A DNA stretch of 63,873 nucleotides from the IMG/VR virus record IMGVR_UViG_3300013006_000032, positions 1 through 63,873 of that record; one strand, 5' to 3'. The position numbers and the translations under genes are program-made. The DNA is from a virus. Its lineage: Duplodnaviria > Caudoviricetes. Within the stretch, counting starts at the first letter, position 1. Every line of letters starts with the position of its first letter. Shown piece by piece: positions 33,630 through 49,883 of the stretch. A model generated the notes under the pieces. That model searched no databases and was not told the DNA's origin. It saw nothing but the letters and a program-made list of their open reading frames with translations.

Positions 33630-34031
33630 ATGAACACTTTTGAACGTAAATTTAGTTTAGTTTTAGAAGCAGATGCTGATGCACCTGTTGCAGCTCCAGA
33701 AAATGACAAAGAAGCAATGGCGCAATCATTAGATACTGCTAAGCCAAATGATTTTGATGTACAGGGTGGCCGGGAGCAGATTGTCGATCATCGCAAAAAA
33801 GAGCAAGTTCAAAAGCTTACGGAATGGATTGCTCACATAGACCAGTTTATTAAGTATTTAAATAGTACAGATCCCTCATCAATGCAAGTACAGCTCCATA
33901 CTGCAGCTTGTGATTCAATGTTTGAAGACATTGCAAGAAGTGAAAAAAAGAAGATCGCAAGGCTTGCTGCAGAATTAAGCTCTTTGAGCGAGTCGCTTAA
34001 GGGCTACTTAATTTCTGCTAACGATAAATAA
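33630..34031 (+). CDS. Hypothetical late protein (probable internal head protein)
   Basis: MNTFERKFSLVLEA leader; late box. Confidence 0.65.
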   Translation: MNTFERKFSLVLEADADAPVAAPENDKEAMAQSLDTAKPNDFDVQGGREQIVDHRKKEQVQKLTEWIAHIDQFIKYLNSTDPSSMQVQLHTAACDSMFEDIARSEKKKIARLAAELSSLSESLKGYLISANDK

Positions 34032-35052
34032 CTGACATCTGTAGCTTAGCTTTAATCCCGCTACTAGAATTGTCTATAAAAAAGCTTGGGTCGATTTTAT
34101 CAAGCTTTTCAGCAATACAGAGATCATTGATATCTTTATATTTTTTTCCTTGCTCTTCAGGCCATATAAACACCGTTTCGCCGCTATCAATAAGTTTTTG
34201 TGTTTTTGTCTTACTAGCGCTGTCTTGCCACTGACTATCGAGTACCCATATTTTTTTATAAAATCTAAAAGGCGCTAATTGCTGCTCTTGTAATAAAGAG
34301 AAAGTGTTACTACTATTTTCTTGAATGCCTGATACAGCAGTTCCATTCTTAACAAAAAATGAATCTATAGGTCCTTCGAAAACAAAAATATAATCTAGAT
34401 CTTGTGATATCTTGTTAATATTATATAGCGATTTTTCACCGTTTATTTTACTTAAATACTTAGGATACAGACGCATATCTTCTTTATAAATTAATCGAGA
34501 TTGATAAAAGATTATATTGTTATGCTCATCGTAAAACGGTATTATAATACGGTTCTTATGTACTTTATCTTTTAGCGATACCCAGAGTGTATCGGGTCTA
34601 TTAATTGCGGTGTCTATTCTTCTCTGTTTCACTAAATCTATCGCATCATTAATAATGTTATTATTTTCAAAAAATTTAATCTGATTTTCGTCAAATATGT
34701 TTATACTATCAAGTGGAAGCCTTTCAACGGGTTTAGCTTTTACCGGGGCATCGTTACTCTTAATAACCTCTAGAGGTAATATATCAAACTCTTTTGCTTC
34801 ATTTAAAATCTCATTAAATGTTAGCCCTGCTACTTCAGTTATCCATTTTATAGCATCGCTATACCACCCGCAATTATGACAGCAAATAGCGTTGTCTTCA
34901 ACAATATATATACATCGTCTTTTCTTACCCCATGATGACCCTTCTCTACAAATAGGGCAGCCTGCAATATACGTATTACTAGATTTTTTAAATTGTGGGT
35001 AGCCTGCGTATTGGTAAAATTTTTGCAGTATATATTCGAACGGTATTAGCAC
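34018..35052 (-). CDS. gp61: DNA primase (gp61-like)
   Basis: Zn finger CPIC...CHNCG, RIIIPFY, TOPRIM FEGPIDS, KDINDL. Confidence 0.92.
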   Translation of the reverse strand: MLIPFEYILQKFYQYAGYPQFKKSSNTYIAGCPICREGSSWGKKRRCIYIVEDNAICCHNCGWYSDAIKWITEVAGLTFNEILNEAKEFDILPLEVIKSNDAPVKAKPVERLPLDSINIFDENQIKFFENNNIINDAIDLVKQRRIDTAINRPDTLWVSLKDKVHKNRIIIPFYDEHNNIIFYQSRLIYKEDMRLYPKYLSKINGEKSLYNINKISQDLDYIFVFEGPIDSFFVKNGTAVSGIQENSSNTFSLLQEQQLAPFRFYKKIWVLDSQWQDSASKTKTQKLIDSGETVFIWPEEQGKKYKDINDLCIAEKLDKIDPSFFIDNSSSGIKAKLQMSVIYR

Positions 35053-37884: not shown

Positions 37885-38297
37885 TCGTTTTTTATTAAAC
37901 TGATTAATTTATCAAGCTTTCTATCCATTCTATCAATAAGGTCAAATATTTGCTTCGAAAGAGGTGAGCTTTCGAAATTAAATTCTAATTGATTAGGGTC
38001 AGACTGCTGCTGCACAGGAATAGGCGTCAAGGGTTGCTGCATATTAATCCCTGCATTAACAACTGTATGCATTGGCTGTTGTATAGGTACGTGATTAACA
38101 ACTGCAGGAGCTGATAGGGCACCAGGAACCGAATTTAAAACATGCGCTGGATCTAATGTCATACCTCTTAGGGTAGCATTTTGCCCAATAATATTACGAT
38201 TAAGTTCTTTTAAATCGCCTGTAAGGTGCTGCCCCATAAACTGCAGGGCCGCCAGCTTTATCTCTTCAGGCGTTAATTCCTTAAAAGTGTCGTCCAT
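37881..38297 (-). CDS. Hypothetical protein (P/Q-rich, QLEFNF motif, C-terminal coiled coil)
   Basis: ORF between gp32 and gp45. Confidence 0.65.
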   Translation of the reverse strand: MDDTFKELTPEEIKLAALQFMGQHLTGDLKELNRNIIGQNATLRGMTLDPAHVLNSVPGALSAPAVVNHVPIQQPMHTVVNAGINMQQPLTPIPVQQQSDPNQLEFNFESSPLSKQIFDLIDRMDRKLDKLISLIKND

Positions 38298-38300
38298 TAA

Positions 38301-39158
38301 TTAGAGATCCTTTAGCAGTTCGCTAATAGAGTCATCTTCGTCCGTTTCAGCTTTTTTACTCACTTTAGCCGTAACGGCAACTACGGGCGTAGGTGCAGAA
38401 GTCTTTTTCTCGACTACTTCACTTATACTTTCAGCATCTTCCGGGTCTTTTGTACCATGGTAATGCGCATTAAGTGATTCCTTTAATTCGTCATAACTTT
38501 TAACGCTAACATATGACTCGAGATCAAATGCATTGCCGTAGATCTTTTTGAATGCATCTTCATCAAGACCTTCAATTTCCTTAGGAGCGGAAAATTTTGA
38601 AGAAACATATGTAGGATAATCACCTTGTTTCTCTACTTTAATTCTCAAATTACACCCCTTAGGAGAGAGATCAAAAATACGCGGACCGAGATCAGCGGCT
38701 TCTTCACCCTCAATAGCATCCATAATAATTTTGTGAAGCTGACGACCGAAGCGAAGCAGCTTTACTTTTCCGTTATTATCTGCATTTACGGGATCATTAA
38801 CAATATAAACACTAACTAGCCAATTTTCTCTACGTTTAATAGCCAGAGCCTTTTCCTTCTCTTTTTCAGTACCATTGCGTAGTACACGATATCGCTCTTC
38901 AGCAATCGGATCGCGCTGATTCCAAGTGGTAGGGCTAATTAGTGTAATAAGTTGACCGGTTGTTAAGCTATTCCAAGCATAAGAATAATAATGAAAAAAC
39001 GTCTTAGTTGGATCTTTAACGTTAGGTAGTAAGCGGACAATATATGTATTGCCTACTTCACAGCGCAAGTAATCTTTAGCTTTTGAAGACGAAGATTCGT
39101 TATTTTTAGTTAGGGCCCCTTTAATACTTTCAAACATTGAATTGGTAAATGTACTCAT
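38301..39158 (-). CDS. gp32: Single-stranded DNA-binding protein (gp32-like)
   Basis: VRLLP, VNDPVNADNNGKVKLLRFG, FDLSPKGCNLRIK, YPTYVSSKF and acidic tail. Confidence 0.9.
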   Translation of the reverse strand: MSTFTNSMFESIKGALTKNNESSSSKAKDYLRCEVGNTYIVRLLPNVKDPTKTFFHYYSYAWNSLTTGQLITLISPTTWNQRDPIAEERYRVLRNGTEKEKEKALAIKRRENWLVSVYIVNDPVNADNNGKVKLLRFGRQLHKIIMDAIEGEEAADLGPRIFDLSPKGCNLRIKVEKQGDYPTYVSSKFSAPKEIEGLDEDAFKKIYGNAFDLESYVSVKSYDELKESLNAHYHGTKDPEDAESISEVVEKKTSAPTPVVAVTAKVSKKAETDEDDSISELLKDL

Positions 39159-39164
39159 CCCTAT

Positions 39165-39192
39165 ATGATACTAGCTTATTAAAATAAATCAA
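39165..39192 (-). promoter_or_regulatory. sigma70-type promoter TTGATT-N16-TATCAT, 6 nt before ATG 39158
   Basis: Seen in sequence. Confidence 0.65.
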
Positions 39193-39830
39193 GCACGATT
39201 TGAAATTTTTTTAAAGCCAAGCTCGACTAATTTCATAGCTTTACTAGAATTATATAATTTTGTTCTAAACATTGAAATATTATTATAGATCTCTTCACCT
39301 ATAATAAATCTAACGACTTCAGCATCACGAGACTTAATCCGCTTTTCAAAATCAGAATAACCAAATAGAGTATACAGGCAAATATTATGTTCTCTAAGAT
39401 GTAATATAAAAGAATATTCATTATTAGTTTTATGATCTATATATTGCGGTACTAATATATTGTTTTGTTTACAAAAATTATATATAAAAACCAAGGATGT
39501 TTTAATATTATTAAGTTGTTCTGTGCTATCCGGATCTTGCAAAGTTTGCTTCTTATTATAAAGGGTATATGCTTTAGTCGCTTTAAGAGTAAAATAATAG
39601 TCTAACGGAAAATGTTTTTCATCAGGATAAAGAGCATAAGGCGCTTTAAAATACTCTTCCATTTTTATATGTGGAAATTTTCTTAAAAAAGAAGAGACTT
39701 TCTTAATCGCTACAAAAGTTTTTTCGTCTAATTTTTCGAAATCTTTTCTATATTTAAAGGGTAAATTATTACTCCCGCGAGATACCTTTAAATATGTATT
39801 GTATATGCGCTTATCGTGCTCTGTAATCAA
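39189..39830 (-). CDS. Hypothetical protein, possibly helicase loader (gp59-like by size and position)
   Basis: Track 39189..39845; TTG 39830 overlaps the bS21 stop (TTGA coupling); lies between gp41 and gp32. Confidence 0.45.
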   Translation of the reverse strand: MITEHDKRIYNTYLKVSRGSNNLPFKYRKDFEKLDEKTFVAIKKVSSFLRKFPHIKMEEYFKAPYALYPDEKHFPLDYYFTLKATKAYTLYNKKQTLQDPDSTEQLNNIKTSLVFIYNFCKQNNILVPQYIDHKTNNEYSFILHLREHNICLYTLFGYSDFEKRIKSRDAEVVRFIIGEEIYNNISMFRTKLYNSSKAMKLVELGFKKISNRA

Positions 39831-40039
39831 CTGTAAAACTTCCACTTATTTCTCATCACTTGCTTCTTAATCTTACGAAGCGCACTTGGCTTGTAATAAC
39901 ATCTACGTATACGTAATTCCTCTAAAACACCAGATTTAAGAAATTCTCTATTAAACTTATTGTAAGCCTTATCAAAGTATGCTTTATCTGTACATCTCTT
40001 TTTATCTAAAGTAACTGATGCTTTTATTACTCTACTCAT
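39827..40039 (-). CDS. rpsU: Ribosomal protein bS21 homolog
   Basis: 70-aa basic protein with FDKAYNKFNREFLKSGVLEELRIRRCYYKPSALRKIKK, matching the bS21 pattern (A-x-x-x-F-x-R...G-x-L-x-E-x-R-x-R-x-x-Y-x-K-P-S-x-x-R-K). Confidence 0.8.
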   Translation of the reverse strand: MSRVIKASVTLDKKRCTDKAYFDKAYNKFNREFLKSGVLEELRIRRCYYKPSALRKIKKQVMRNKWKFYS

Positions 40040-40332
40040 ACGGTCAACATTTTCTTATTACTGTTTAAAAATTTCATGATGTATTTACTTTTATATAGGC
40101 TAGAGTCAAATTGCAAGAAAAATTTAACAGCGCTAAAATCATTTTTGAGATCGCAATACTCTTTAAATAAATCTCTTAAATTCTTATTCTTTAATAAGTG
40201 TATAAAAACATTAGCTAAATTAAGTTTTTTTGTATTAATAAGTGTTACGAATGAACAAAAAGATAAGAACAAGTGTGTTTGCTCATATTCTGTTAAGTGT
40301 TCTAGTGGATCGTACCCTTTCACAGTCAACAA
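40036..40332 (-). CDS. Hypothetical protein
   Basis: ORF whose stop overlaps the bS21 start (ATGA). Confidence 0.6.
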   Translation of the reverse strand: MLTVKGYDPLEHLTEYEQTHLFLSFCSFVTLINTKKLNLANVFIHLLKNKNLRDLFKEYCDLKNDFSAVKFFLQFDSSLYKSKYIMKFLNSNKKMLTV

Positions 40333-40357
40333 CTAATTATTGACTATTTATTAAAAA

Positions 40358-41686
40358 TCAAATGTCTAGGGCAAGTTTTGATAGAGTACTAATAGAAGAT
40401 GTACTAGCTTCTGTATCGTTTATATGTTCGTCCTCCGTAATAGTTAAGGTTGAATAGTCAATTCTCATAGCGCAATGGCCGAAATTAGGTCCAAATCTAT
40501 TCTTCATAAATCCCATTTTTATCACTCCGAGCTCTTTATCTGTATCTTCTTGCCAAATACTTAAGATAACGTCGCCCGTCATTGCTAAGCCTATACTCTC
40601 TGAGATCGTCTTTAAGCCGGGATCTGTAGTCTCATACCCTTCTCTATTTAATTGTGTAGCTGATATAATTGGACAAGAGAATGTATAAGAAAGAGCGCGT
40701 AACTGCTCGGTGCACATCTTTATACGTTCATAACTACTATCCCCTGTTGTCGAACGTAATAAATTGACATAATCTAATACTATAGCATCTATATGAATGC
40801 CTTTTTGAATAAGTTTTTTGACAAATGCCCTTAAGTGATTTGCTGTAATAGTCGCGGGTGGAAATTCTTTTATAATTAGCTTAGCGTTAGGATTCTCAAC
40901 ACAATACTCATTAATTTGGCTTTTTAACGTTTCAGACTCTATTTTAAGCTGGCTGAGTGGTATCTTAGATACACTGGAACAGAGCCTCTTGGCATAAACT
41001 AATTCAGGCATCTCAAGAGATACCAATAATACGGTTTTACCTTTATTAGCAATATTTACCGCTACATTGCCTAAAAAAATACTCTTACCTATATTAGTTT
41101 CTCCAGCGAACAAGTAAAGAGCGCGGCCCTGCTCAAGAAACCCGCCACCAATCTTGTCATCAAGCCATTTCCATCCAGAGGGAATATAATTTTCATGCGA
41201 ATTTAAATCTGTTATAACTCGATCAATATCGGTAAATAGATCTAAACCTATTTCAGTAGTAAGAGATAAACTACACGCCTTTTCAAACTTTTCAAGAATT
41301 TTAGATGTATCAACTTCACTTTTATTAATGTCATCTACGACTTCCATCATAGTATGGTAGACTGCTTTTTCTTTTAAAAAAGTCTCAGTATTTGTAGCTA
41401 ACTCATCAGGATTAAGATTTTTTTCAATATTATTAAAAAGTTGAATTACATTCTTGAGAGAAGTTTTAAGCTCTTCGGTAATAAGATAAGACTTAATTTC
41501 TGTTACTGTAGGTTTGGTATTACGCTTTTCATAAAAATCACTAATAATACTAAAAATAGCCTTAATGTCTTTATTTTTAAAATAAATTGGTTTGATATAA
41601 TCAATAATTGATGCGAGATATGTTTCATCAGTTAGCGACTTATATGCTATTAATGATTCAAAATAATCTAGATCTAACTTCGACAT
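40358..41686 (-). CDS. gp41: Replicative DnaB-like helicase
   Basis: Walker A GETNIGKS, SLEM, LDYVNLL, SATQLNR and MKNRFG. Confidence 0.95.
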   Translation of the reverse strand: MSKLDLDYFESLIAYKSLTDETYLASIIDYIKPIYFKNKDIKAIFSIISDFYEKRNTKPTVTEIKSYLITEELKTSLKNVIQLFNNIEKNLNPDELATNTETFLKEKAVYHTMMEVVDDINKSEVDTSKILEKFEKACSLSLTTEIGLDLFTDIDRVITDLNSHENYIPSGWKWLDDKIGGGFLEQGRALYLFAGETNIGKSIFLGNVAVNIANKGKTVLLVSLEMPELVYAKRLCSSVSKIPLSQLKIESETLKSQINEYCVENPNAKLIIKEFPPATITANHLRAFVKKLIQKGIHIDAIVLDYVNLLRSTTGDSSYERIKMCTEQLRALSYTFSCPIISATQLNREGYETTDPGLKTISESIGLAMTGDVILSIWQEDTDKELGVIKMGFMKNRFGPNFGHCAMRIDYSTLTITEDEHINDTEASTSSISTLSKLALDI

Positions 41687-41693
41687 TAGTTAT

Positions 41694-41721
41694 AATATAC
41701 AATCAATTTAACGGTAATCAA
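41694..41721 (-). promoter_or_regulatory. sigma70-type promoter TTGATT-N16-TATATT, 7 nt before ATG 41686
   Basis: Seen in sequence. Confidence 0.5.
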
Positions 41722-42398
41722 TGTTGACTATATTCTTTAATAAACTTTTCTTGGCTTTCACGAAAATTTTTATCTTCAAAACTTAATAGCCCAGGCGAAT
41801 TATGGAGCACCCATATCGGAGCAACACCAAGCTTAAGTTTCTTATAATTTGCATCAATGCTGCTTGCTATATCATAATGGTGAAAATTATAGTTTTCATT
41901 AAATTTCCAGCCTACAGACTTTATTTTTCTTGTATCAACACTTAAAAATAATCCGTCTAAAATAGCAACACGGCTTGGCGTGGGGCCAAAGCTTGTAAAC
42001 ATAATTTGATCTTTTGCACAAGGATGAGATACAGCACCACGAAGATTACCGCTCTGAAACCCTCCACACATTAAATGCCATAATGCAGGTTCTTTGATAA
42101 CAGGATTAATACCACCAGCTAGACCAACTATATCAAACTGTGTATGCGCCCGCTCTAATTTCTCGCAAACCCCAAGATCATCGACGTATACATCATCGTG
42201 TATAAAGACGATATGTGTATAATCGGTTTTATGCGTTTCAATTATACTGTTATATAGTATACTTAGCCCTGTTGTGTTGTTTGTATTATATAAAATATCA
42301 ATATTAGAATCTCTTTCTTTTAATCTTTGAAGGGATTTATAAGCAAGCGTCTCTCGTTCTCTAGCACCGCGGGTTGCGAAATAAAAGGCAATTTTCAT
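41718..42398 (-). CDS. GT-A fold glycosyltransferase (GT2-like)
   Basis: GLSILYN, VFIHDDV (DxD-like), IVGLAG, LDGLFL and FHHYDIA motifs. Confidence 0.75.
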   Translation of the reverse strand: MKIAFYFATRGARERETLAYKSLQRLKERDSNIDILYNTNNTTGLSILYNSIIETHKTDYTHIVFIHDDVYVDDLGVCEKLERAHTQFDIVGLAGGINPVIKEPALWHLMCGGFQSGNLRGAVSHPCAKDQIMFTSFGPTPSRVAILDGLFLSVDTRKIKSVGWKFNENYNFHHYDIASSIDANYKKLKLGVAPIWVLHNSPGLLSFEDKNFRESQEKFIKEYSQH

Positions 42399-43078
42399 TT
42401 TGTAAAAAATGGTGAGTTTGTTTTAAACTTACCTACTGAAGTTATACCTTCCTGCGTTAAAAGATATAGTACACCTTCTTCTAGGGCAACAAATCCTTTT
42501 TCTTTTATAGATGAAAAATCGTTAGTTAAAAAATTAGCAAATACAGTACTACCCGAACGACCTATATACGTATTTCTTGATCTCTGATTATAAATCCACA
42601 CACCAAATGTGCCCTTGAGCTGTGATAAAGCGAAACATATAGCTGCAACCTCGTCATTACTCTTTTTATACATGGTATGAATAAGAGGTGCAATAACCGA
42701 GGAATCGACAGTATTAAACGACTTCTTATCGGTTAATTGCGCTTTTATCTCTTTATCGTTAGTCAATACACCATTATGAGCAACAAGCCAGTCTTTATAC
42801 TGAAAGGGATGAGATGTCGTGGGCGAAAATGTTCTCTTAGCAGACGTCGGTGCTTGAGTGTGTCCGAGAAACAAATCAAAATCTGCTATTTTTCTCTTCT
42901 TTTTTCCATATTCAATAATGAGATTATCGGCCAACTTAGTTACCCCTGGGGTCTTAAGAATAGCGTGTATCTTATGACCGATCAATAAGCCGCCATAAGA
43001 AAAAGTACCTCTTTTCTTATTACTATTATAGAGCTTTACGTATTTTGTAAATTCTTTAGAGCCAAATATGCCGCAAAT
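42395..43078 (-). CDS. Class II (Ntn) glutamine amidotransferase with non-canonical ATT start
   Basis: In-frame extension of track ORF 42395..42985 gives ATT-TGC-GGC-ATA-TTT-GGC = (M)CGIFG...RG...GHTQAPT...HPF...AHNGVLTN...VDS. An in-frame TAG lies at 43093-43091, so no upstream ATG is possible. Confidence 0.85.
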   Translation of the reverse strand: MCGIFGSKEFTKYVKLYNSNKKRGTFSYGGLLIGHKIHAILKTPGVTKLADNLIIEYGKKKRKIADFDLFLGHTQAPTSAKRTFSPTTSHPFQYKDWLVAHNGVLTNDKEIKAQLTDKKSFNTVDSSVIAPLIHTMYKKSNDEVAAICFALSQLKGTFGVWIYNQRSRNTYIGRSGSTVFANFLTNDFSSIKEKGFVALEEGVLYLLTQEGITSVGKFKTNSPFFTK

Positions 43079-43085
43079 ATGTTTT

Positions 43086-43092
43086 ACCTCCT
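43086..43092 (-). promoter_or_regulatory. Perfect Shine-Dalgarno AGGAGGT, 7 nt before ATT 43078
   Basis: Seen in sequence. Confidence 0.8.
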
Positions 43093-43097
43093 AAATT

Positions 43098-43125
43098 ATT
43101 ATAATAAGAAGATTAAATAATTCAA
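43098..43125 (-). promoter_or_regulatory. sigma70-type promoter TTGAAT-N16-TATAAT; predicted +1 at the SD itself
   Basis: Seen in sequence; overlaps the divergent late box ATTAAATA (43112-43119, +). Confidence 0.65.
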
Positions 43126-43126
43126 G

Positions 43127-44017
43127 ATGAATAAAGATGTAAATCTCATCTTCGAAGCGTATAAAAAAGCAAAAACCGTTGTAACGGAAGCACCTATATA
43201 TAGTACCGGTGATTTAGAGTATACTGGCGACGTCGATTCAGCTCCGGGTAAAGGCTATGGTATAGGCAAAGTTGCTTCAAAAGAAGGAAAGTCAAAGGCC
43301 GAAGTAGCTAATACCCTTTTAAGAGCAATTCAAACAAAACTCTTTAAGCCTGCGTTGCATACTATTGACGGTAAAGAATATAAACTCTTTTACCCGGGTA
43401 GTAAGATGAAATTTAGAACAGATTTAGAAAATTTAATTAAAAGTGAGCTTAAAATCGGTGGGACAGAGGCAAAGTATACAGCGAGAATAGTTGATAATTT
43501 GCTTAATGTTTTAAGAGTTGATGCGGAGGGTGGTATTGGTGCTGCCCCAGCTCAAGTCAAGCAAGCAGTCATTTCAGGTATCGAGGGTAAAGATATCGGA
43601 CCAGGTGGTGCATCAGTACAAGCAGCTCCTGCTGCAAATTCGTTTATTAAAAACTCGGGTGTTAGATTTATTAAGGAATGGATGCCTATTTTTGTAGAAC
43701 TTCCGGATGAGATAACAATTGCTAAGGGAGATCTATATGAGTCTCCTGAGCTACGTAATGAAGTTGTTGAAGCTATAACTCGTGCATATGATGAAGCAAA
43801 AGCAAAAGACAAAGAATTGGTTCAAGATTTTATCGACTCATTAAAATTTAAAAATAGTTATACACCTGCAGCCGAGAAAAAAGAAGGTGAAGGAACAGGC
43901 GAAGAGCCCATAATAGATGAGTATCCAGAGGGTGATGATGCGTATTCAGCGGCTAAGCAAGAATTTGGATTAAGACAGCGGCCTGTTGACCAAGGCAATT
44001 TTAGCTACAGTGACTAA
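43127..44017 (+). CDS. Hypothetical late protein (probable internal head protein)
   Basis: MNKDVNLIFEAY...VVTEA leader; late box 7 nt upstream. Confidence 0.65.
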   Translation: MNKDVNLIFEAYKKAKTVVTEAPIYSTGDLEYTGDVDSAPGKGYGIGKVASKEGKSKAEVANTLLRAIQTKLFKPALHTIDGKEYKLFYPGSKMKFRTDLENLIKSELKIGGTEAKYTARIVDNLLNVLRVDAEGGIGAAPAQVKQAVISGIEGKDIGPGGASVQAAPAANSFIKNSGVRFIKEWMPIFVELPDEITIAKGDLYESPELRNEVVEAITRAYDEAKAKDKELVQDFIDSLKFKNSYTPAAEKKEGEGTGEEPIIDEYPEGDDAYSAAKQEFGLRQRPVDQGNFSYSD

Positions 44018-44046
44018 TTCTAGAGTTGTTTTAATAACTTTTATAT

Positions 44047-44054
44047 AATAAGTA
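44047..44054 (+). promoter_or_regulatory. late promoter variant AATAAGTA, 5 nt before GTG 44060
   Basis: Seen in sequence. Confidence 0.55.
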
Positions 44055-44059
44055 GTCTA

Positions 44060-45049
44060 GTGAAGATTAAGGTTATTGGGTGTGGTATATCGGGTATTAC
44101 TGCTGCGGTATTGCTAGAAGAAAGAGGTCATGATGTTGAAATTTTTGAATCTCGAAATCATATAGGTGGCAATTGCCATGACACTAATTTAGCAGGTACT
44201 TTAGTACATAGTTACGGACCACATTCATTTCATACAGATGACGATGAAGTGTTTAACTTTTTAAGTCGCTACACGGAATGGTTTCCTTTTGAACTTAGAC
44301 CTAAAGGCAATACAGAGCTTGGATTAATCTCGCTACCATACAGCAAAACAACAATTAAAGAGCTTGGAAGAGAGCTTACACAAGAAGAAATTTTAAAATA
44401 TATCTTCAAGGGCTATTCTGAAAAGCAATGGGGTATGCCGTTAGAAAAAATTTCTAATAGTATTTTAAGTAGAATACCAAAAGTAGCAGATAAAGAGAAT
44501 CCCACATGGTTTGAAGGTCAGAAATATCAATGCGTACCTTTAAGGGGTTACACTAAGATGTTTGAGAATATGCTGCGCGATATAAAGGTGCATCTTAATA
44601 CAACTAATAAAGATTGGAAAGAGTATAATACAGATCTGACAATATACACAGGTAAAATTGATGAATATTTTGACTTTTGTTATGGTCGACTACCATACCG
44701 ATCATTAAAGTTTGAACATACTTTGAGCTATGAAAAGATGAATACATTTATTATTAATCAAAATCGAGCTGACATCCCTTATACGCGTGTTTATGATCAT
44801 AGTTATTATACTAAAGACCATAAGGGTCCGACAATTATAACAAAAGAATATTCAATCGACCACACAGAAAATAATATTCCTTTCTACCCAATTCCGTTTG
44901 GCGAGGGTGTAGAGATTTATAAGAAATATAGTGAACTTGCGGGAAAAGAAGAAAATGTTATATTTTTAGGTCGCCTGGCTACTTATAAATATTTAGATAT
45001 GTGGATGGCGGTTAAACAAGCGATACAAAAAGTTTCATATCTCAACTAA
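44060..45049 (+). CDS. glf: UDP-galactopyranose mutase
   Basis: FAD motif GCGISG, HIGGNC, HSYGPHSFHT, YSEKQWG, LPYRSL, YTRV, FYPI and GRLATYKYLDM. Confidence 0.92.
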   Translation: MKIKVIGCGISGITAAVLLEERGHDVEIFESRNHIGGNCHDTNLAGTLVHSYGPHSFHTDDDEVFNFLSRYTEWFPFELRPKGNTELGLISLPYSKTTIKELGRELTQEEILKYIFKGYSEKQWGMPLEKISNSILSRIPKVADKENPTWFEGQKYQCVPLRGYTKMFENMLRDIKVHLNTTNKDWKEYNTDLTIYTGKIDEYFDFCYGRLPYRSLKFEHTLSYEKMNTFIINQNRADIPYTRVYDHSYYTKDHKGPTIITKEYSIDHTENNIPFYPIPFGEGVEIYKKYSELAGKEENVIFLGRLATYKYLDMWMAVKQAIQKVSYLN

Positions 45050-45786
45050 GATATCTTTTTACAGTTATATTTCTCCCAAGGTATCGTAATTTTATAAGAA
45101 ATCGGGTCTATATACCCAGCATCTATAAAGCCTTTTATCCTCAAAGAGCACGCTGTACATTCACCGCAAGCCTGCTCTTCTCCTTCATAGCAGGTCCAAG
45201 TATTACTAAAATTTACATCATGTTTAATACCGAGTTTTATGATTTCTTCCTTAGATTTATCAATTAAGGGTGCTTGCACAGCGATTCTGTTGCGACGGTT
45301 TAAAGCCGATACTTTATTAATTTGCTCTAAAAATTCTTCGCTACCATCCCAAAACCCTGCAACACTATCAGCTTGTGCAGCTCCATGAAAAACAGTACTA
45401 GCCCCTGCGTTTTCTGCAATTGCGAGTGAAATACTTAGTAGCATTAAATTCCTGTATGGAACATAGTTTACCGTCTGTGGATCGCCCATTACATCTTTAG
45501 CCTTAGCAACAGCTATCTTCTTATTAAGAAGTGAAGAGACTTGACAAATATCCTTAAAAAACGGTAGATCTACCCATATATGCTCAACAGGTGTATCAAT
45601 CGATTCAACCTGTAGCGCAGCACAATTGAGCTCTTTATCTTTGTGCTTCTGCCCGTAATTATAACTAATTGCTATAATCTCATCATACTGACTTGCAGCT
45701 AAATGTAACAGTACAGAACTGTCCATTCCCCCAGAAATAGGGACTACAGCTTTACTCGACTGGTGCTTCTTCGCTTTGCGCTTCAT
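45046..45786 (-). CDS. queC: 7-cyano-7-deazaguanine (preQ0) synthase
   Basis: PP-loop SGGMDS, YGQKH..E, YVPYRN and TWTCY...CGECTAC..R Zn motif. Confidence 0.93.
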   Translation of the reverse strand: MKRKAKKHQSSKAVVPISGGMDSSVLLHLAASQYDEIIAISYNYGQKHKDKELNCAALQVESIDTPVEHIWVDLPFFKDICQVSSLLNKKIAVAKAKDVMGDPQTVNYVPYRNLMLLSISLAIAENAGASTVFHGAAQADSVAGFWDGSEEFLEQINKVSALNRRNRIAVQAPLIDKSKEEIIKLGIKHDVNFSNTWTCYEGEEQACGECTACSLRIKGFIDAGYIDPISYKITIPWEKYNCKKIS

Positions 45787-46870
45787 TGACGTTATACTTG
45801 TATTCCTCTGTTAAGCGCTTGTCGAGTTCAGGAATAATAAATTCCTCGTAGAAAGCGGGGTCTTTAGCAAAAGTCTTTGCATAACCCAGTTTATCACCCT
45901 TCTTATACTTACCGCTAGTAATACCAACTGTATAAGTTGCACCGTTTTGTTCAACGATGCCTCTTGCAGTCGCCATACCGAGCAGCCCGCTATATTTGTT
46001 AAGACCGGTCTTAAAAGAAAGGTACATTTCTGTCTCTAGGAACGGAGGAAGAAAGCGATTCTTCACAGTTAGCGCACGAAGTGTTGTACCGCTATACTTG
46101 TTAGCTTCTGCAAGCTTCTTATCATCAGTATCCATGGAATCACCTTCACCTTCTTTTTCATGGCGCTTAGCAAGCTGTACGAGAATACTCGCCATATATA
46201 CAGGCCCTGAACCGCCAGCTTGGTTTTTTACCAGACTTGGGAACATTGAGGCAGGATCTTCGTATGTATGATTAGTAAACAGAATCGTAACGCCAGCCTT
46301 GGCAGCTTTAAAGGTTAATGTACGGAACATACTTTTTAAAGACTTTGCACGAAGACCCATATCTGATGCAGATTTATCTTTAGCAACGTCATCAAGCTCT
46401 TTCTGTGAAGCGAGATTACCGAGACTGTCAATACTAATAATAAACTTACCTCTTGCGTTATTTTCGATTACACTATCAAGAAAAGCACTAATCTGATTAC
46501 GGCACTGATCAATAGTATCAACCGGTACATATTTTGTACCTTCAGGGTCTAATCCAACTCCTTTTGTACTATTCTCATCAATAGCGATTTCAGTATCAAA
46601 TATGACGGGCGTCAAGCCTTTCTTTTGCGCAGTAGCAAGGATCTTATTAACAATAAAAGTCTTACCCGTCTGACTTGGTCCTGAGAAACCTGTTATTCTT
46701 CCTTGAGGTACGCCACCATTACGACAACTACCGCCGAGAATAGCGTTAAGAGCATAGCATCCTGTATCAAACCACTGATCAACTTTACTAAGTGCATTTT
46801 CGTTTAAAAAAGATGCTTCTGAATTTAACTTATCTAACGACGCGAATACTTTATTAAGATCTTTATTCAT
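45752..46870 (-). CDS. uvsX: RecA-like recombinase
   Basis: DTGCYALNAILGG, Walker A GPSQTGKT, FDTE, IDSLGNL, TNHTY, GGSG and KNRF. Confidence 0.93.
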   Translation of the reverse strand: MNKDLNKVFASLDKLNSEASFLNENALSKVDQWFDTGCYALNAILGGSCRNGGVPQGRITGFSGPSQTGKTFIVNKILATAQKKGLTPVIFDTEIAIDENSTKGVGLDPEGTKYVPVDTIDQCRNQISAFLDSVIENNARGKFIISIDSLGNLASQKELDDVAKDKSASDMGLRAKSLKSMFRTLTFKAAKAGVTILFTNHTYEDPASMFPSLVKNQAGGSGPVYMASILVQLAKRHEKEGEGDSMDTDDKKLAEANKYSGTTLRALTVKNRFLPPFLETEMYLSFKTGLNKYSGLLGMATARGIVEQNGATYTVGITSGKYKKGDKLGYAKTFAKDPAFYEEFIIPELDKRLTEEYKYNVNEAQSEEAPVE

Positions 46871-46876
46871 AGATCT

Positions 46877-46904
46877 ATTATATATGAAGTATATTTAAAT
46901 ACAA
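46877..46904 (-). promoter_or_regulatory. sigma70-type promoter TTGTAT-N16-TATAAT, 6 nt before ATG 46870
   Basis: Seen in sequence. Confidence 0.7.
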
Positions 46905-46912
46905 GTAAAAAA

Positions 46913-47263
46913 TTACTCGTCAAACAACTTTACTACTGGTTCAGAAGAAGGTGCAGTAGCTTGCGCGGCGAACAATCTATCATATTGATCAATGAGACGG
47001 GGATCATTGTCAATATCAACACCGATGACAATTGTATTAATATTAAACTTCCAAGTTGTTCCCTCATTACGAGCTTTCTCGCCAACAAACTCCCTAAAAT
47101 AAAGAGGAATTGTTTGCACGTTGAGTTGACCCTGTTGCGTCGGCTGTACGTGTACGATTGCGGGGTTCTTAACTGTTAGATGTGTTTTGTCAAGAGACAC
47201 CTGGGTTGCTAAAATTGTTCTTCCGATGTGATCAATAAATGTTACTAAGTTGTTTTTGCTCAT
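46913..47263 (-). CDS. Hypothetical beta-rich protein (Sm/SH3-like pattern)
   Basis: ORF with promoter TTGATT-N16-TAAATT (47270-47297) 6 nt upstream. Confidence 0.65.
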   Translation of the reverse strand: MSKNNLVTFIDHIGRTILATQVSLDKTHLTVKNPAIVHVQPTQQGQLNVQTIPLYFREFVGEKARNEGTTWKFNINTIVIGVDIDNDPRLIDQYDRLFAAQATAPSSEPVVKLFDE

Positions 47264-47297: not shown

Positions 47298-49883
47298 CTA
47301 CACTTTTAATAATTCAAATAAATCTGTCTGTACTTGTGTTCCTGGTGTCTGTAGCTTCCAATTTACAGCATCATAAAACCTTTCTATTACAGAAAAAATA
47401 ATCTTTTCAAACATAAGTTCATGGTCAGGCTCGAATACACCTTCAAATTCCTTAGGATACGTATACTTGTAGCCTGCAGTTGTTATTCCAAATCGATTAG
47501 GTTGCTTGGCGTAAAAATATCTAACTTTATCGCCAGATGAAATTTTTTCATACTTCTTACCAGTATTAAATCTATCTAATAGTAAATTATAAAAATAAGC
47601 AGCTTTGACATGGATAGGCATATGCTTTGCAGTTTTGAATCCATCACACTGCGCAGCATATTTTTCATATCCTTTGATACCCATAACAAAGGATATATCT
47701 TCAACGGGTAATTTTTTGAATATATCGTATGTTTCATTAAAAATTTTATTTGTTTGTGCTAAATCGTGGGTCATTAGCATTGTTTCAATAATCTTTTTAA
47801 CATATGGCTTAATGGGCGCTGGCATTGTAGTACGTACAACTTCTACTCCAGTGTATTTAAATTTATCGCACGGGATTCCTTCTTCATCAAGAACATGTAG
47901 TACATATCGCTTTTTTTGTAGAAAGAGCCCTGTATCTGCTATGGCTTCGCGTTTAAAATTTAATCTACAATCTATAGAGCCTAGAGCAGATTCACCCCAC
48001 TTGACGATATTTTCGTTAAGATGATCTTCTATATCTTGAACCTGCCTATAGTATTCGGGTGTTATCTTACCCTTACTATCAAACATTTTTAATCCTGTTT
48101 TTCTTACAATATGTTTAATCGAAACGTATGAGCTATCTGTATCATTATAGATAATTGGCGTATCTGTTGTAATCTCATTGTCTGTTAACGATGCTTTTTG
48201 TTTTATATAATTTTCAAGTAGTCTATTCGATTCCTTAATAACTGCTTGACCTGTGAGTGTTATAGACTCAGCCAGTTCATCATCGCCTAGAGGACTGTGC
48301 TTGTTCCCAAAATATCCGTAAATTGTATTAATTAAAATCTTAATTGTATGTTGAGTAATATTTAAATTCTCTACCTGCGTATTTGTTTTTGAATATTCAT
48401 CAGTTAGTTTATCAAGCGTTACAAGCTTCTTCTTAAGAATCTTTAATTGACGTTTAATCTCAACTCTCTTCTTGTAGAAATGATCGACAGTTTCAGGAAT
48501 AATACCTTTCTCTTTCTGTGTAAAGAGAACTTTAGCTTTCGAAATAGCTATTTTTTCTTTCTTAATAAATTCTGTAAAATTAGGAATAGAGAGGGTAAAT
48601 GTTTGACCGTTGACGTGATTAATAGTTATTTCCTTATCTGTCTTCTCTGTAATTACACCAACTTTTGTTTCCGGTGAAAGATTAAGAGTAATCATTACAT
48701 TTGGATATAGACTGTTTGCATCAAAGGAAACAATATTTTCTTGAAATCCCTTTCTAGGTTCTCCAACATATGCACCGGCATTTTGCTCATCATTATGTGA
48801 TTCTTTATTAAATGTAGGTATACGCTGATCTCTCCCCCTAGCCCGGATAGCACATAACCCTGTAATTACGGAGAGCGACCCTAAGGCGCCTTCAAAAGTA
48901 GTTAACCCTGCATATGCAATCATTCTTAATAACTTAAGATATTGCAGCTTTTCTTCGAGTCTAATAAGCAAATTAACGTCTTGTATATTATAATCGACAA
49001 ATAGCTCCCAATTATCGTCGGCAAGACTTGCGAGATTTGTATCCCCATAATCGATCTTATTTTCACCAAGTTCGGTTTCACCAATCGAATCAAGCTTGTA
49101 TGATTCTCGGAGAACAGGGCAAAACCTTTTGTATATATCAAGATAATCAACGCAAGACACGCCTTCTATATGCCAATGTACTTGATCACGTCCGAAGCGA
49201 CCTTTAAAGGTAATAGGGCGGATATACCCTACAGGAGAAAGCTTTTTTGTTTCATCTTCACCTAGAATACGAGTAATCCGGTTAATGATATAAGGAAGAT
49301 CAAAAAATTCACTATTCCATCCCGATAGAATATCTGGATAATCGGAGGAAAAATAACTTATAAACTTACTTAATAAATCTTTTTCTGTCTTACAGTATAT
49401 ATACGTACAATTTTCTTTCGTTTGATAGTAAGGCTTTAACCCCCACGAGACAAATCTTTTTCTTAAAGTATCGTAAACTGTAATAATATTAATAGGGTGC
49501 TGAGGGTCGTCAGGCTTTGGAAATTCGTCAGGACTATAGGTTTCAATATCAATAAATAGTACGCGTATTGGGTGTTTATTAAATTCTTCTTTCTCATTAG
49601 TTTCCCAAAAGCAATCGATTAAAAATTGTTGCTGAATATTGAGATTTTCAAATATACGGGTAATTTTATTATCCTTAAGGTAGCGTGATCTTTCAGCTTG
49701 ATTTTTAAATTTTTTCTTCTTTAACTTAGTATTAAAAATGCTAGTACAATCTGGATGGTTATTTGTCTCGAGATATATGTATGGCTCGCATGTTGAATCA
49801 ACAGCAATACGCTTACCAGTATCGTCCCAGGTAAAAAGACGCATCATTTGATCGCGAGGAAGATAGGCTACGTTACGGTACAC
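47298..49883 (-). CDS. gp43: Family B DNA polymerase
   Basis: ExoI DIET, GWNSEFFD, SYKLD, FDANSLYP, KILINTIYG, YNDTDS and KKRY. Confidence 0.97.
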   Translation of the reverse strand: MYRNVAYLPRDQMMRLFTWDDTGKRIAVDSTCEPYIYLETNNHPDCTSIFNTKLKKKKFKNQAERSRYLKDNKITRIFENLNIQQQFLIDCFWETNEKEEFNKHPIRVLFIDIETYSPDEFPKPDDPQHPINIITVYDTLRKRFVSWGLKPYYQTKENCTYIYCKTEKDLLSKFISYFSSDYPDILSGWNSEFFDLPYIINRITRILGEDETKKLSPVGYIRPITFKGRFGRDQVHWHIEGVSCVDYLDIYKRFCPVLRESYKLDSIGETELGENKIDYGDTNLASLADDNWELFVDYNIQDVNLLIRLEEKLQYLKLLRMIAYAGLTTFEGALGSLSVITGLCAIRARGRDQRIPTFNKESHNDEQNAGAYVGEPRKGFQENIVSFDANSLYPNVMITLNLSPETKVGVITEKTDKEITINHVNGQTFTLSIPNFTEFIKKEKIAISKAKVLFTQKEKGIIPETVDHFYKKRVEIKRQLKILKKKLVTLDKLTDEYSKTNTQVENLNITQHTIKILINTIYGYFGNKHSPLGDDELAESITLTGQAVIKESNRLLENYIKQKASLTDNEITTDTPIIYNDTDSSYVSIKHIVRKTGLKMFDSKGKITPEYYRQVQDIEDHLNENIVKWGESALGSIDCRLNFKREAIADTGLFLQKKRYVLHVLDEEGIPCDKFKYTGVEVVRTTMPAPIKPYVKKIIETMLMTHDLAQTNKIFNETYDIFKKLPVEDISFVMGIKGYEKYAAQCDGFKTAKHMPIHVKAAYFYNLLLDRFNTGKKYEKISSGDKVRYFYAKQPNRFGITTAGYKYTYPKEFEGVFEPDHELMFEKIIFSVIERFYDAVNWKLQTPGTQVQTDLFELLKV

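What the first reader, a model, noticed from the sequence alone, without database searches (positions are those of the whole stretch)
42395..43125. The one SD-led gene: a leader that is essentially only AGGAGGU plus an AUU start codon, on the Ntn amidotransferase
Seen on the minus strand: TTGAAT-N16-TATAAT-aattt-AGGAGGT-aaaacat-ATT-TGC-GGC-ATA-TTT-GGC, with an in-frame TAG five codons upstream. Established: class II GATases need Cys immediately after the initiator Met (MCGI), so translation must start at ATT 43078, which the ORF track missed. AUU initiation is best known from infC, where it senses IF3 levels. Inference: in a genome whose promoter-proximal genes otherwise lack SDs, a perfect SD paired with a weak AUU looks like a deliberate translational switch. 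It could be sensitive to IF3 or to anti-SD availability, which phage bS21 could alter, and would control a DNA-modification step and the coupled glycosyltransferase.
Basis: partly seen in the sequence, partly recalled or inferred. Interest (0 to 1): 0.85.

Follow-up and report, generated by a model that had tools for sequence, protein, structure and literature searches.

The report
AUU start with strong ribosome-binding site
A phage enzyme gene really does start at the rare codon AUU behind a perfect ribosome-binding site, and related phages switch this gene between that design and a leaderless AUG start, never mixing the two.

Summary
On the minus strand, TTGAAT-N16-TATAAT-N5-AGGAGGT-N7-ATT-TGC precedes a 227-aa class II (Ntn) glutamine amidotransferase. 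Its catalytic Cys is residue 2.

No other start in the window has a comparable SD: 0 of 69 ORF starts reach -8 kcal/mol, against -11.5 here.

The ATT is not an error. Among 72 distinct related viral loci, 40 have ATT, each with GGAGG 8-10 nt upstream and T at -1. The other 32 have ATG, none with a well-spaced GGAGG. In 22 of those 32, an exact TATAAT ends 6-9 nt before the ATG, which looks leaderless. Start type and SD change together 6-7 times on the protein tree.

The downstream glycosyltransferase overlaps the amidotransferase stop by 4 nt in 70 of 72 loci, so it depends on the same start.

The window's promoter-proximal genes look leaderless throughout.

My reading: SD plus U-AUU is a selected, co-adapted start that replaces a leaderless AUG. 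It keeps the gene pair at low or IF3-sensitive translation. That purpose is inferred, not shown.

The proposed phage bS21 link is not supported, because bS21 tracks phylogeny and not start type. A DNA-modification role is unproven, since no TGT/DpdA was found. The host is unknown.

The parts
43120..43125 (-). -35-like hexamer TTGAAT of the amidotransferase promoter. It overlaps, on the other strand, the leader of the divergent gene.
   Evidence: TTGAAT or TTGAAA is conserved in most relatives. Part of that conservation may belong to the divergent gene's TAAATA element.
43098..43103 (-). -10 hexamer TATAAT. It lies 5 nt upstream of AGGAGG, so the predicted transcript begins at or next to the SD.
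   Evidence: In one search's table of 68 unique loci, the nearest exact TATAAT ends 18-20 nt before ATT in 23 of 38 ATT loci, and 6-9 nt before ATG in 21 of 30 ATG loci. Adding L197 gives 22 of 32 ATG loci. The transcription start site is inferred, not measured.
43086..43092 (-). Shine-Dalgarno sequence AGGAGGT.
   Evidence: Pairing energy is -11.5 kcal/mol. GGAGG is invariant in 40 of 40 ATT-type loci, at 8 nt (23 loci), 9 nt (13) or 10 nt (4) before ATT.
43076..43079 (-). U(-1) plus the AUU initiation codon (ATT 43078-43076, T at 43079).
   Evidence: ATT occurs in 40 of 72 unique relatives. T at -1 occurs in 40 of 40 ATT loci, against 7 of 32 ATG loci.
42395..43078 (-). Class II (Ntn) glutamine amidotransferase domain protein of 227 aa. 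Cys2 is the nucleophile.
   Evidence: Pfam GATase_6 and GATase_7 score above their cut-offs. A profile aligns to the GlmS glutaminase domain. The AF2 model has pLDDT 89.9 and matches 1xff_A at TM 0.72 by Foldseek.
41718..42398 (-). Glycosyltransferase (Glyco_tranf_2_5). Its ATG overlaps the amidotransferase stop (ATGA), and it has no SD or promoter of its own.
   Evidence: The 4-nt overlap is conserved in 70 of 72 loci, and a 1-nt overlap occurs in the other 2.
43114..44017 (+). Divergent 296-aa gene of unknown family (ATG 43127). A T4-late-promoter-like TAAATA (43114-43119) ends 7 nt before its ATG.
   Evidence: A divergent homolog is present in 49 of 72 loci.
39827..40039 (-). Phage-encoded ribosomal protein bS21 (70 aa).
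   Evidence: PF01165 scores 36.4 bits. Only phage relatives were found. Its distribution follows phylogeny, not start type.
45046..45786 (-). QueC-like gene, a possible partner of the amidotransferase.
   Evidence: Pfam QueC at 1.8e-56. phrog_10428 matches both the amidotransferase and QueC. QueC lies within the flanks of 58 of 72 loci.

Best explanation
The gene encodes a stand-alone Ntn (class II) glutamine amidotransferase. It is translated from AUU 43078.

Proposed mechanism. A short transcript, predicted to begin at or next to AGGAGG, recruits the 30S subunit by SD/anti-SD pairing. The initiator tRNA then reads U-AUU 8 nt downstream. The formyl-Met is removed to expose Cys1. Ribosomes finishing at TGA restart at the overlapping ATG of the glycosyltransferase, so a single initiation site sets the output of both proteins.

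SD plus U-AUU is a co-adapted, selected design. In sister phages it is exchanged for a leaderless AUG, in which TATAAT ends 6-9 nt before the ATG. A well-spaced SD is never combined with AUG.

Most likely purpose (inferred). The design keeps the pair at low translation, dependent on the IF2/IF3 balance. In E. coli, both AUU starts and 5'-terminal AUGs need IF2 and are antagonised by IF3. A canonical SD plus AUG would escape that control.

Shown: the start codon, its conservation, the SD/start co-variation, the Ntn fold and the gene overlap.
Inferred: the transcription start sites, the IF3 dependence and the dosage purpose.
For: The sequence is as described.

Enzyme and its N terminus:
- Cys2 and the HNG and D-S-S motifs are invariant in 15 of 15 aligned homologs. 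The more distant homologs begin MCGIF.
- The profile aligns to the GlmS glutaminase domain.
- The model has pLDDT 89.9 and matches 1xff_A at TM 0.72. Its first strand starts at residue 3.

Start codon and SD in 72 unique related loci:
- 40 have ATT with GGAGG 6-11 nt upstream. 32 have ATG without such a site. None is mixed.
- In one search's table, an exact TATAAT ends 6-9 nt before ATG in 21 of 30 ATG loci. With L197 this is 22 of 32.
- Start type changes 6 times on one tree, at least 4 of them forced by starred branches. Shuffled labels give a mean of 22.6, and 0 of 500 shuffles are as low.
- On the second tree there are 7 changes, and the SD changes at the same 7 places. All 5 independent pairs on starred branches are concordant, as are 7 on all branches.
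- The SD-ATT spacer varies freely, while GGAGG, T(-1) and ATT are 100% conserved.
- Near-sister loci L054 (ATG) and L057 (ATT) differ by an insertion of about 11 nt carrying GGAGG, plus the change of ATG to ATT.
- ATT with an SD also occurs behind a leader of about 44 nt in the L047-type lineage.

Other points:
- 36 of 40 ATT loci have no canonical in-frame start within 60 nt upstream.
- The stop/start overlap with the glycosyltransferase is present in 72 of 72 loci.
- Genome context: TAAATA lies 5-7 nt before the start in 20 of 69 ORFs. A TTGA/TTGT-N16-18-TATAAT-like promoter ends 5-9 nt before the start in 9 of 69. Each pattern occurs at 4 of 1795 control ATGs.
- Published passages state that IF3 discriminates against AUU. 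They also state that leaderless translation needs a 5' AUG, depends on IF2 and is antagonised by IF3 (PMC4611024).
Against: - There are no RNA 5' ends, ribosome profiles or N-terminal peptides. The transcription start sites and 'leaderless' status rest on motif spacing only.
- The sigma-70 consensus scan is not above shuffles.
- The SD and the start codon are about 8 nt apart, so one recombination event would move both. The 6-7 'changes' may therefore be fewer independent events. The sign test on 5 pairs gives only p = 0.0625.
- Two ATG loci (L093, L230) have a leader with GGAGG or GAGGAG 12-15 nt before the ATG. That third design fits simple dosage tuning better than an IF3-class rule.
- All genes of this phage, capsid genes presumably included, look leaderless. 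Leaderless starts may therefore be efficient in this host, which weakens the 'both designs are weak' argument.
- IF3 behaviour is known from E. coli, and the host here is unknown.
Confidence: 0.6

Rival explanations
1. Pure dosage compensation. The strong SD only offsets the weak AUU, or the AUU only damps a strong SD. The result is a fixed low output of a potentially harmful glutaminase. No sensing of IF3, IF2 or ribosome state is involved.
For: Optimal SD plus ATG is absent in 0 of 72 loci. A third, probably weak design exists: GGAGG or GAGGAG 12-15 nt before ATG in L093 and L230. Compensatory changes between start codon and SD are described in prokaryotes (PMC5622118; I saw only the search listing and the start of the abstract). 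A published section notes that rare start codons may set low expression (PMC5499595 section 23).
Against: It does not explain why the weak codon is always AUU with U at -1 (40 of 40) and never GUG, UUG, AUA or AUC. It also does not explain why the alternative is specifically a leaderless AUG. The same published section argues that low expression alone is too simple an account of rare start codons.
Confidence: 0.28
2. The SD-led gene is controlled by anti-SD availability, which the phage-encoded bS21 changes. This could work by exposing or hiding the 16S 3' tail, as host bS21 does in Bacteroidia.
For: A bS21 gene lies 2.4 kb downstream on the same strand. This is the only SD-led start in the window. 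In Flavobacterium, bS21 sequesters the anti-SD, and ribosomes without it translate SD-led rpsU (PMC9976891 passages).
Against: bS21 is found in 4 of 5 large relatives, including ATG-type G002 and G005. Within 3 kb it accompanies the large ATT clade and ATG loci L022, L023 and L036, but none of the other ATT lineages. Early promoters are of the TTGAtt-N17-TATAAT type, not the Bacteroidia type as I recall it. This explanation does not account for AUU.
Confidence: 0.08
3. Translation starts upstream at a canonical codon and a propeptide is removed autocatalytically, as recalled for Bacillus subtilis PurF. Alternatively, the gene is a decaying pseudogene.
For: L047 and L060 have an in-frame ATG 12 codons upstream. 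In 15 of 40 ATT loci the upstream frame is open for the 60 nt examined.
Against: 36 of 40 ATT loci have no canonical in-frame start within 60 nt. The window has a TAG 5 codons upstream, and some loci have a stop 2-3 codons upstream. The upstream ATG is absent in sister loci of L047. The protein is under strong constraint, with 65 invariant columns in 15 sequences. SD, spacing and ATT are all conserved.
Confidence: 0.03
4. Assembly or sequencing error, or a private mutation of ATG to ATT.
For: None found.
Against: ATT is present in 40 unique loci from many metagenomes. Contigs of two other studies span the site with no listed difference. Gene callers truncate the closest database relatives to 174-216 aa, as expected if they too lack a canonical start.
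Confidence: 0.01

Closest known systems
infC (IF3) AUU start with IF3 autoregulation in E. coli, and other AUU-started genes such as pcnB (recalled)
   Same: A conserved non-canonical AUU start sits behind a good SD. Published E. coli data show that AUU is discriminated against by IF3 and is highly IF2-dependent (including a reference-list entry for La Teana 1993).
   Different: The product is not IF3, so there is no autoregulatory loop. The setting is a phage whose other genes look leaderless. The AUU design alternates in evolution with a leaderless AUG. IF3 dependence was not tested here.
Leaderless mRNAs (lambda cI type; common in Actinobacteria, Deinococcus and others)
   Same: Sister loci place TATAAT 6-9 nt before an obligatory ATG (32 of 32 are ATG). 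In the window, 29 of 69 ORFs show the same promoter-at-start layout. A review states that only AUG works at a 5' end.
   Different: The window's own copy is not leaderless. It carries a leader of about 13 nt that is essentially only the SD. No 5' ends were measured.
Start-codon/SD compensatory evolution (Belinky et al. 2017, PMC5622118)
   Same: A weaker start codon is accompanied by a stronger SD.
   Different: Here the exchange is between two whole architectures, leaderless AUG and SD+U-AUU. It involves AUU, not GUG or UUG, in one gene family, recurrently. I saw only the listing and the start of the abstract.
Flavobacterial rpsU extended SD and bS21-dependent anti-SD sequestration (PMC9976891, PMC7797042)
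   Same: A lone strong SD in a genome that otherwise does not use SDs, together with a bS21 gene.
   Different: The promoter type argues against a Bacteroidia host. bS21 does not track the SD-led state. The SD-led gene is not rpsU.
Gat-QueC fusion of 7-deazaguanine (dG+) DNA-modifying phages (PMC6884629; search listing only)
   Same: A class II amidotransferase and QueC occur in one phage. phrog_10428 matches both window proteins.
   Different: Here they are separate genes 2 kb apart. The amidotransferase is instead coupled to a glycosyltransferase. No TGT/DpdA was detected in the window or in 5 relatives.

Membership tests
Class II (Ntn, PurF-type) glutamine amidotransferase domain | Nucleophile Cys as the first residue after the initiator Met | tested here: met
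   Cys2 is invariant in 15 of 15 aligned homologs. Full-length relatives begin MCGIF. In the window the Cys codon directly follows ATT 43078.
Class II (Ntn, PurF-type) glutamine amidotransferase domain | Ntn four-layer fold covering the whole domain | tested here: met
   The AF2 model has pLDDT 89.9 and pTM 0.89. Foldseek against 1xff_A (GlmS glutaminase domain) gives E 9.3e-13 and TMq 0.72. PurF and EgtC are also hit.
Class II (Ntn, PurF-type) glutamine amidotransferase domain | Conserved Asn-Gly oxyanion pair and the Asp that binds the glutamine amino group (GlmS N98, G99, D123; numbering recalled) | tested here: met
   The profile alignment places 'vvahnGv' on GlmS 'VVHNGI' and 'evDssvi' on 'ETDTEVI'. 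H101, N102, G103 and D125 are invariant.
Class II (Ntn, PurF-type) glutamine amidotransferase domain | Pfam family score above the curated cut-off | tested here: met
   GATase_6 scores 34.9 bits against a cut-off of 27. GATase_7 scores 28.1 against 25.
Class II (Ntn, PurF-type) glutamine amidotransferase domain | A synthase partner or domain that accepts the ammonia | not tested
   The protein is the glutaminase domain alone (227 aa). The coupled glycosyltransferase and the QueC 2 kb away are candidates. No complex prediction was run.
infC-type IF3-sensed AUU initiation | Conserved non-canonical AUU start behind an SD | tested here: met
   40 of 40 ATT-type unique loci have GGAGG 8-10 nt upstream.
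infC-type IF3-sensed AUU initiation | Expression rises when IF3 is limiting | not testable with these tools
   This needs in vitro translation or reporters. Only published E. coli statements were seen.
infC-type IF3-sensed AUU initiation | The product is IF3 itself, closing an autoregulatory loop | tested here: not met
   The product is an amidotransferase.
Leaderless mRNA (applies to the ATG-type sister loci and to other window genes, not to the window's amidotransferase) | A promoter -10 element placed so that transcription starts at or within about 3 nt of an AUG | tested here: inconclusive
   An exact TATAAT ends 6-9 nt before ATG in 22 of 32 ATG loci. TAAATA lies 5-7 nt before the start in 20 of 69 window ORFs, against 4 of 1795 control ATGs. 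No 5' ends were measured.
Bacteroidia bS21/anti-SD sequestration regulon (rpsU type) | The SD-led state co-occurs with the relevant bS21 | tested here: not met
   bS21 is present in both ATG-type and ATT-type genomes. Its proximity follows phylogeny.
Bacteroidia bS21/anti-SD sequestration regulon (rpsU type) | The host is a member of Bacteroidia | tested here: inconclusive
   The host was not identified. Early promoters resemble TTGAtt-N17-TATAAT, which is not the Bacteroidia consensus as I recall it.
Gat-QueC / 7-deazaguanine DNA modification module | A DpdA (TGT-family) transglycosylase in the phage | tested here: not met
   PF01702 gave 0 matches in the window and 0 in 5 relatives that are 60-88% complete. 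A divergent DpdA, or one on missing sequence, cannot be excluded.
Gat-QueC / 7-deazaguanine DNA modification module | The amidotransferase is fused to QueC | tested here: not met
   They are separate genes, at 42395-43078 and 45046-45786, with two plus-strand genes between them.

The most novel reading that the evidence does not exclude
This phage lineage runs its whole gene programme on leaderless mRNAs. It also biases the host's initiation machinery towards IF3-antagonised, IF2-dependent starts, either through the IF3/IF2 balance or through ribosome composition (for example its own bS21).

The amidotransferase-glycosyltransferase pair can belong to that regulon in either of two interchangeable ways: a 5'-terminal AUG, or an SD-anchored U-AUU. 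A canonical SD+AUG is excluded because it would uncouple the pair from the programme.

That would make AUU starts and leaderless AUGs a single regulatory class exploited by a virus.
Probability: 0.18. Interest if true: 0.85.

Novelty: new variant of a known kind. Interest (0 to 1): 0.62.

Why it matters
AUU starts are rare, and the only well-understood case is infC. Here evolution has repeated the experiment. One gene is swapped several times between a leaderless AUG and an SD-anchored U-AUU, and is never found with a well-spaced SD plus AUG.

This gives a ready-made set of natural constructs for three questions:
- Do AUU starts and leaderless AUGs form one IF3/IF2-controlled class?
- Does the U at -1 help the initiator tRNA on AUU?
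- How does a T4-like phage that seems to make almost only leaderless mRNAs get them translated?

There is also a practical point. Gene callers truncate this enzyme by removing its catalytic Cys, and this affects dozens of database entries.

Tried and rejected
- RNA structure in the 5' region. Folding 103 nt from the SD gave z = -0.59 against shuffles, so no switch-like structure is indicated.
- Rfam scan of 38000-47000 at E up to 1. There were only 3 sub-threshold chance matches, none near the site.
- GenBank phages. There was no DNA match. The protein matched only GlmS-like regions at 26% identity.
- Bacterial and archaeal species genomes. No relative of the amidotransferase was found.
- Host identification failed.
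  - UvsX is at most 34% identical to cyanophage and Methylophilales phage proteins.
  - There are no tRNA genes.
  - bS21 has only phage relatives in the word-based search. It is about equally distant from all solved bS21 proteins.
  - The relative that IMG/VR calls a provirus (G003) carries phage tail-fibre-like and other non-host genes at both ends.
- RNA evidence. The one metatranscriptome contig laid (X19) covers only 43139-43367, inside the divergent gene. It says nothing about the amidotransferase transcript.
- The sigma-70 consensus scan is not above shuffles.
- Other GGAGG-plus-start sites in the window all lie inside longer ORFs.
- Esposito et al. 2003, on extended codon-anticodon pairing, is not held. 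I saw only its reference-list entry, so the role I give to U(-1) rests on recall.
- No supplementary files were consulted.
- No complex prediction was run.
- Papers. Searches found no paper describing this phage gene's AUU start or an exchange between leaderless AUG and SD+AUU.
Full report
**What is in the sequence.**
Read on the minus strand, the 48-bp gap between two divergent genes holds the following, in order:
- TTGAAT at 43125-43120, then 16 nt.
- TATAAT at 43103-43098, then aattt.
- AGGAGGT at 43092-43086, then aaaacat.
- ATT at 43078-43076, followed by TGC GGC ATA TTT GGC.

An in-frame TAG lies five codons upstream. There is no ATG, GTG or TTG between that TAG and the Cys codon. The mechanical ORF list begins the frame only at TTG 42985, giving 196 aa.

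**The gene.**
Translated from ATT, the 227-aa product matches Pfam GATase_6 and GATase_7 above their cut-offs. It also matches a phage family over its full length (phrog_12378).

In an alignment of 15 homologs, C2, G3, I4, F5, H101, N102, G103 and D125 are invariant. A profile of that alignment aligns to the GlmS glutaminase domain. The HNG and D-x-S motifs fall on the corresponding GlmS motifs.

An AlphaFold model (pLDDT 89.9) has its first strand at residues 3-7. It superposes on the GlmS glutaminase domain 1xff_A (E 9.3e-13, TMq 0.72), on PurF and on EgtC.

This is therefore a complete Ntn glutaminase domain. Starting at TTG 42985 would remove the nucleophile and the first 31 residues.

**The ATT is real and conserved.**
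A scan of IMG/VR with the window protein gave 19 loci. L001 is 100% identical. The other 18 are 67-77% identical. All 19 have ATT followed by TGC or TGT, with GGAGG upstream.

A profile scan kept the best 80 of 383 relatives. At the aligned first codon, 44 had ATT, 35 had ATG and one (L086) was misaligned. Two further scans with other lead sequences added only four usable new contigs.

I then removed duplicates, the rearranged L086/L177 and the partial L227. That left 72 distinct loci: 40 with ATT and 32 with ATG.

In the large protein database, the closest relatives are called at 174-216 aa, so they are truncated. More distant relatives (50-63% identity) are 227-229 aa and begin MCGIF.

Contigs from two other studies span the site, with no listed difference between 42975 and 43284. 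The tool left two differences unlisted.

**The key result: start codon and leader change together.**
- Every one of the 40 ATT loci has GGAGG ending 8 nt (23 loci), 9 nt (13) or 10 nt (4) before ATT.
- None of the 32 ATG loci has GGAGG 6-11 nt upstream.
- Instead, an exact TATAAT ends 6-9 nt before the ATG in 22 of the 32 (21 of 30, plus L197). That is the geometry of a leaderless or nearly leaderless mRNA.
- Eight further ATG loci have only near-matches to TATAAT.
- Two ATG loci (L093, L230) have a leader with GGAGG or GAGGAG 12-15 nt before ATG.

In one search's table, the nearest exact TATAAT ends 18-20 nt before ATT in 23 of 38 ATT loci. It lies 5-6 nt upstream of GGAGG. The predicted transcript therefore begins at the SD itself.

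The L047-type lineage has ATT behind a leader of about 44 nt with GGAGAGGAGGG. The pairing therefore does not depend on a 5'-terminal SD.

I built a protein tree without the first residue. On it, start type needs 6 changes, at least 4 of them forced by well-supported branches. Shuffled labels need a mean of 22.6, and 0 of 500 shuffles are as low.

With 72 rows and a site-heterogeneous model, start type needs 7 changes. The SD changes at the same 7 places. All 5 independent pairs on supported branches are concordant, as are 7 on all branches. The sign test on the 5 pairs gives p = 0.0625, the floor for five pairs.

L054 (ATG) and L057 (ATT) are near sisters. They differ by an insertion of about 11 nt carrying GGAGG, plus the change of ATG to ATT.

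Within the ATT loci the spacer varies freely, with 36-62% consensus at most positions. GGAGG, ATT and the base before ATT are 100% conserved. That base is T in 40 of 40 ATT loci, against A 22, T 7 and G 3 in ATG loci. T makes up 96 of 301 spacer bases.

I recall a proposal that a U at -1 pairs with A37 of the initiator tRNA and helps weak start codons (Esposito et al. 2003). I saw only its reference-list entry, and the paper is not held.

One caveat applies. The SD and the start codon are about 8 nt apart, so a single recombination would move both. The number of truly independent events may be lower than the parsimony count.

**Context in this phage.**
The window is a 29%-complete T4-like virus record. 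It encodes gp32, UvsX and a DnaB-like helicase.

Of 69 non-overlapping ORFs:
- 20 have TAAATA ending 5-7 nt before the start. This resembles the T4 late promoter and would place the transcript start at the A of ATG.
- 9 have a TTGA/TTGT-N16-18-TATAAT-like promoter ending 5-9 nt before the start.
- Each pattern occurs at only 4 of 1795 control ATGs.

SD-like pairing at starts is at background level: 10 of 69 against 12.8% of random positions at -4 kcal/mol or better. None of the 69 reaches -8, against -11.5 for the amidotransferase leader. Of 26 GGAGG sites, only this one precedes a real ORF start.

The amidotransferase is thus the single SD-led gene in a genome whose promoter-proximal genes look leaderless. 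The divergent gene at 43127 has its own TAAATA 7 nt before its ATG. That element overlaps the TTGAAT on the other strand, so part of the conservation of the '-35' may belong to the neighbouring gene.

**Coupling.**
The glycosyltransferase ATG overlaps the amidotransferase stop (ATGA). That 4-nt overlap is kept in 70 of 72 loci, sometimes as GTGA or TTGA. The other 2 loci have a 1-nt overlap. The glycosyltransferase has no SD or promoter motif of its own. One initiation site therefore probably governs both proteins.

**How it most likely works.**
The following are shown:
- The start codon and its conservation.
- The co-variation of SD and start codon.
- The Ntn fold.
- The gene overlap.

The following are inferred. 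The SD recruits the 30S subunit. U-AUU is read weakly by the initiator tRNA under IF3 proofreading. The initiator Met is removed to expose Cys1. Ribosomes then restart on the glycosyltransferase.

Why is AUG never combined with a well-spaced SD? A review states that IF3 discriminates against AUU, AUC and AUA. It also states that leaderless translation needs a 5' AUG, depends on IF2 and is antagonised by IF3 (PMC4611024 passages). The two natural designs therefore share one property that SD+AUG lacks.

I favour the reading that the pair is kept in that IF3-antagonised, IF2-dependent class. Simple dosage capping is the main rival. The L093/L230 design speaks for dosage capping. So does the fact that all genes here look leaderless, which suggests that leaderless starts may be efficient in this host.

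**The bS21 and DNA-modification ideas.**
A bS21 gene is present at 39827-40039 (PF01165, 36.4 bits). However:
- bS21 is found in 4 of 5 large relatives, including ATG-type G002 and G005.
- Within 3 kb downstream, it is present in all 24 loci of the large ATT clade whose flank reaches it.
- It is also present in ATG loci L022, L023 and L036.
- It is absent in all other ATT lineages.

bS21 therefore follows phylogeny and not start type.

The TTGAtt/TATAAT early promoters and the evident use of an SD argue against a Bacteroidia host. Bacteroidia is where anti-SD sequestration by bS21 is documented.

QueC lies 2 kb away and is within the flanks of 58 of 72 loci. One PHROG family matches both the amidotransferase and QueC. 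No TGT/DpdA was found in the window or in five relatives that are 60-88% complete. No QueD was found in the window. A role in DNA modification remains a guess.

**What led nowhere.**
- There is no RNA structure signal.
- There is no Rfam family near the site.
- No bacterial or cultured-phage relatives were found.
- The host was not identified.
- The only RNA contig lies in the neighbouring gene.
- Seven literature searches found no description of this start site or of an exchange between leaderless AUG and SD+AUU.

**Verdict.**
- Supported: a selected SD+AUU design that controls a coupled gene pair.
- Open: whether it senses IF3.
- Not supported: the bS21 link.
- Unproven: a role in DNA modification.

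It is a new variant of a known kind, namely a non-canonical start with a compensating SD. Its unusual feature is that it alternates with a leaderless AUG.

Noticed in passing
whole window, e.g. 12078, 18687, 25083, 27414, 29799, 43127, 58304, 62489: 20 of 69 ORFs have TAAATA ending 5-7 nt before the start codon (control ATGs: 4 of 1795). This is a T4-late-promoter-like element placed so that late transcripts would start at the A of ATG. It suggests a T4-like phage with largely leaderless late mRNAs.
   Followed up: partly
window 46870, 41686, 39158, 37849, 49883, 56981, 57727, 63796 (gene starts): Replication and early-type genes (UvsX, DnaB, gp32 and others) are preceded by cTTGAtt-N16-18-TATAAT-like promoters ending 5-9 nt before the start: 9 of 69 ORFs against 4 of 1795 control ATGs. 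Some of these starts would be leaderless GTG (47298-49883, 34018-35052). That would be unusual if true, or else the start is miscalled.
   Followed up: partly
window 39827-40039 (-): A phage bS21 gene sits in the replication module between the DnaB-like helicase and gp32. It has no SD of its own. The same position is kept in the large ATT clade and in L022, L023 and L036.
   Followed up: partly
window 45046-45786 (-) and relatives G001-G005: A QueC-like gene is present without any detectable TGT/DpdA (0 of 5 relatives and the window) or QueD (window). What this QueC does is unclear.
   Followed up: partly
window 44060-45049 (+): A UDP-galactopyranose mutase (Glf) gene lies between the amidotransferase and QueC. 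It occurs in the flanks of only 7 of 72 related loci, so it looks like a recent insertion.
   Followed up: no
window 43094-43107: The -10 region TTATTATAATAA is its own reverse complement, so TATAAT reads on both strands of the divergent intergenic region.
   Followed up: no
L086 / L172 / L177 (one contig): The first 8 residues of the amidotransferase, including the Cys, are replaced by unrelated G+C-richer sequence. This is either a rearranged copy or a chimeric assembly.
   Followed up: no
L047 2965-3000 and L060: Two ATT-type loci have an in-frame ATG 12 codons upstream of ATT, which could give a 12-residue extension. It is absent in their sister loci.
   Followed up: partly
L251 3288-5335 (record G003): A 158-kb relative carries two adjacent genes matching LCIB/LCIC-type beta-carbonic-anhydrase-like proteins, and an LRR protein. 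IMG/VR labels this record a provirus, but both of its ends carry phage-type genes.
   Followed up: no
database proteins P0001, P0003-P0021 and others: Gene callers truncate the ATT-type amidotransferases to 174-216 aa, or extend them from an upstream TTG (P0002, 248 aa). Public protein sets therefore lack the catalytic Cys for this clade.
   Followed up: partly
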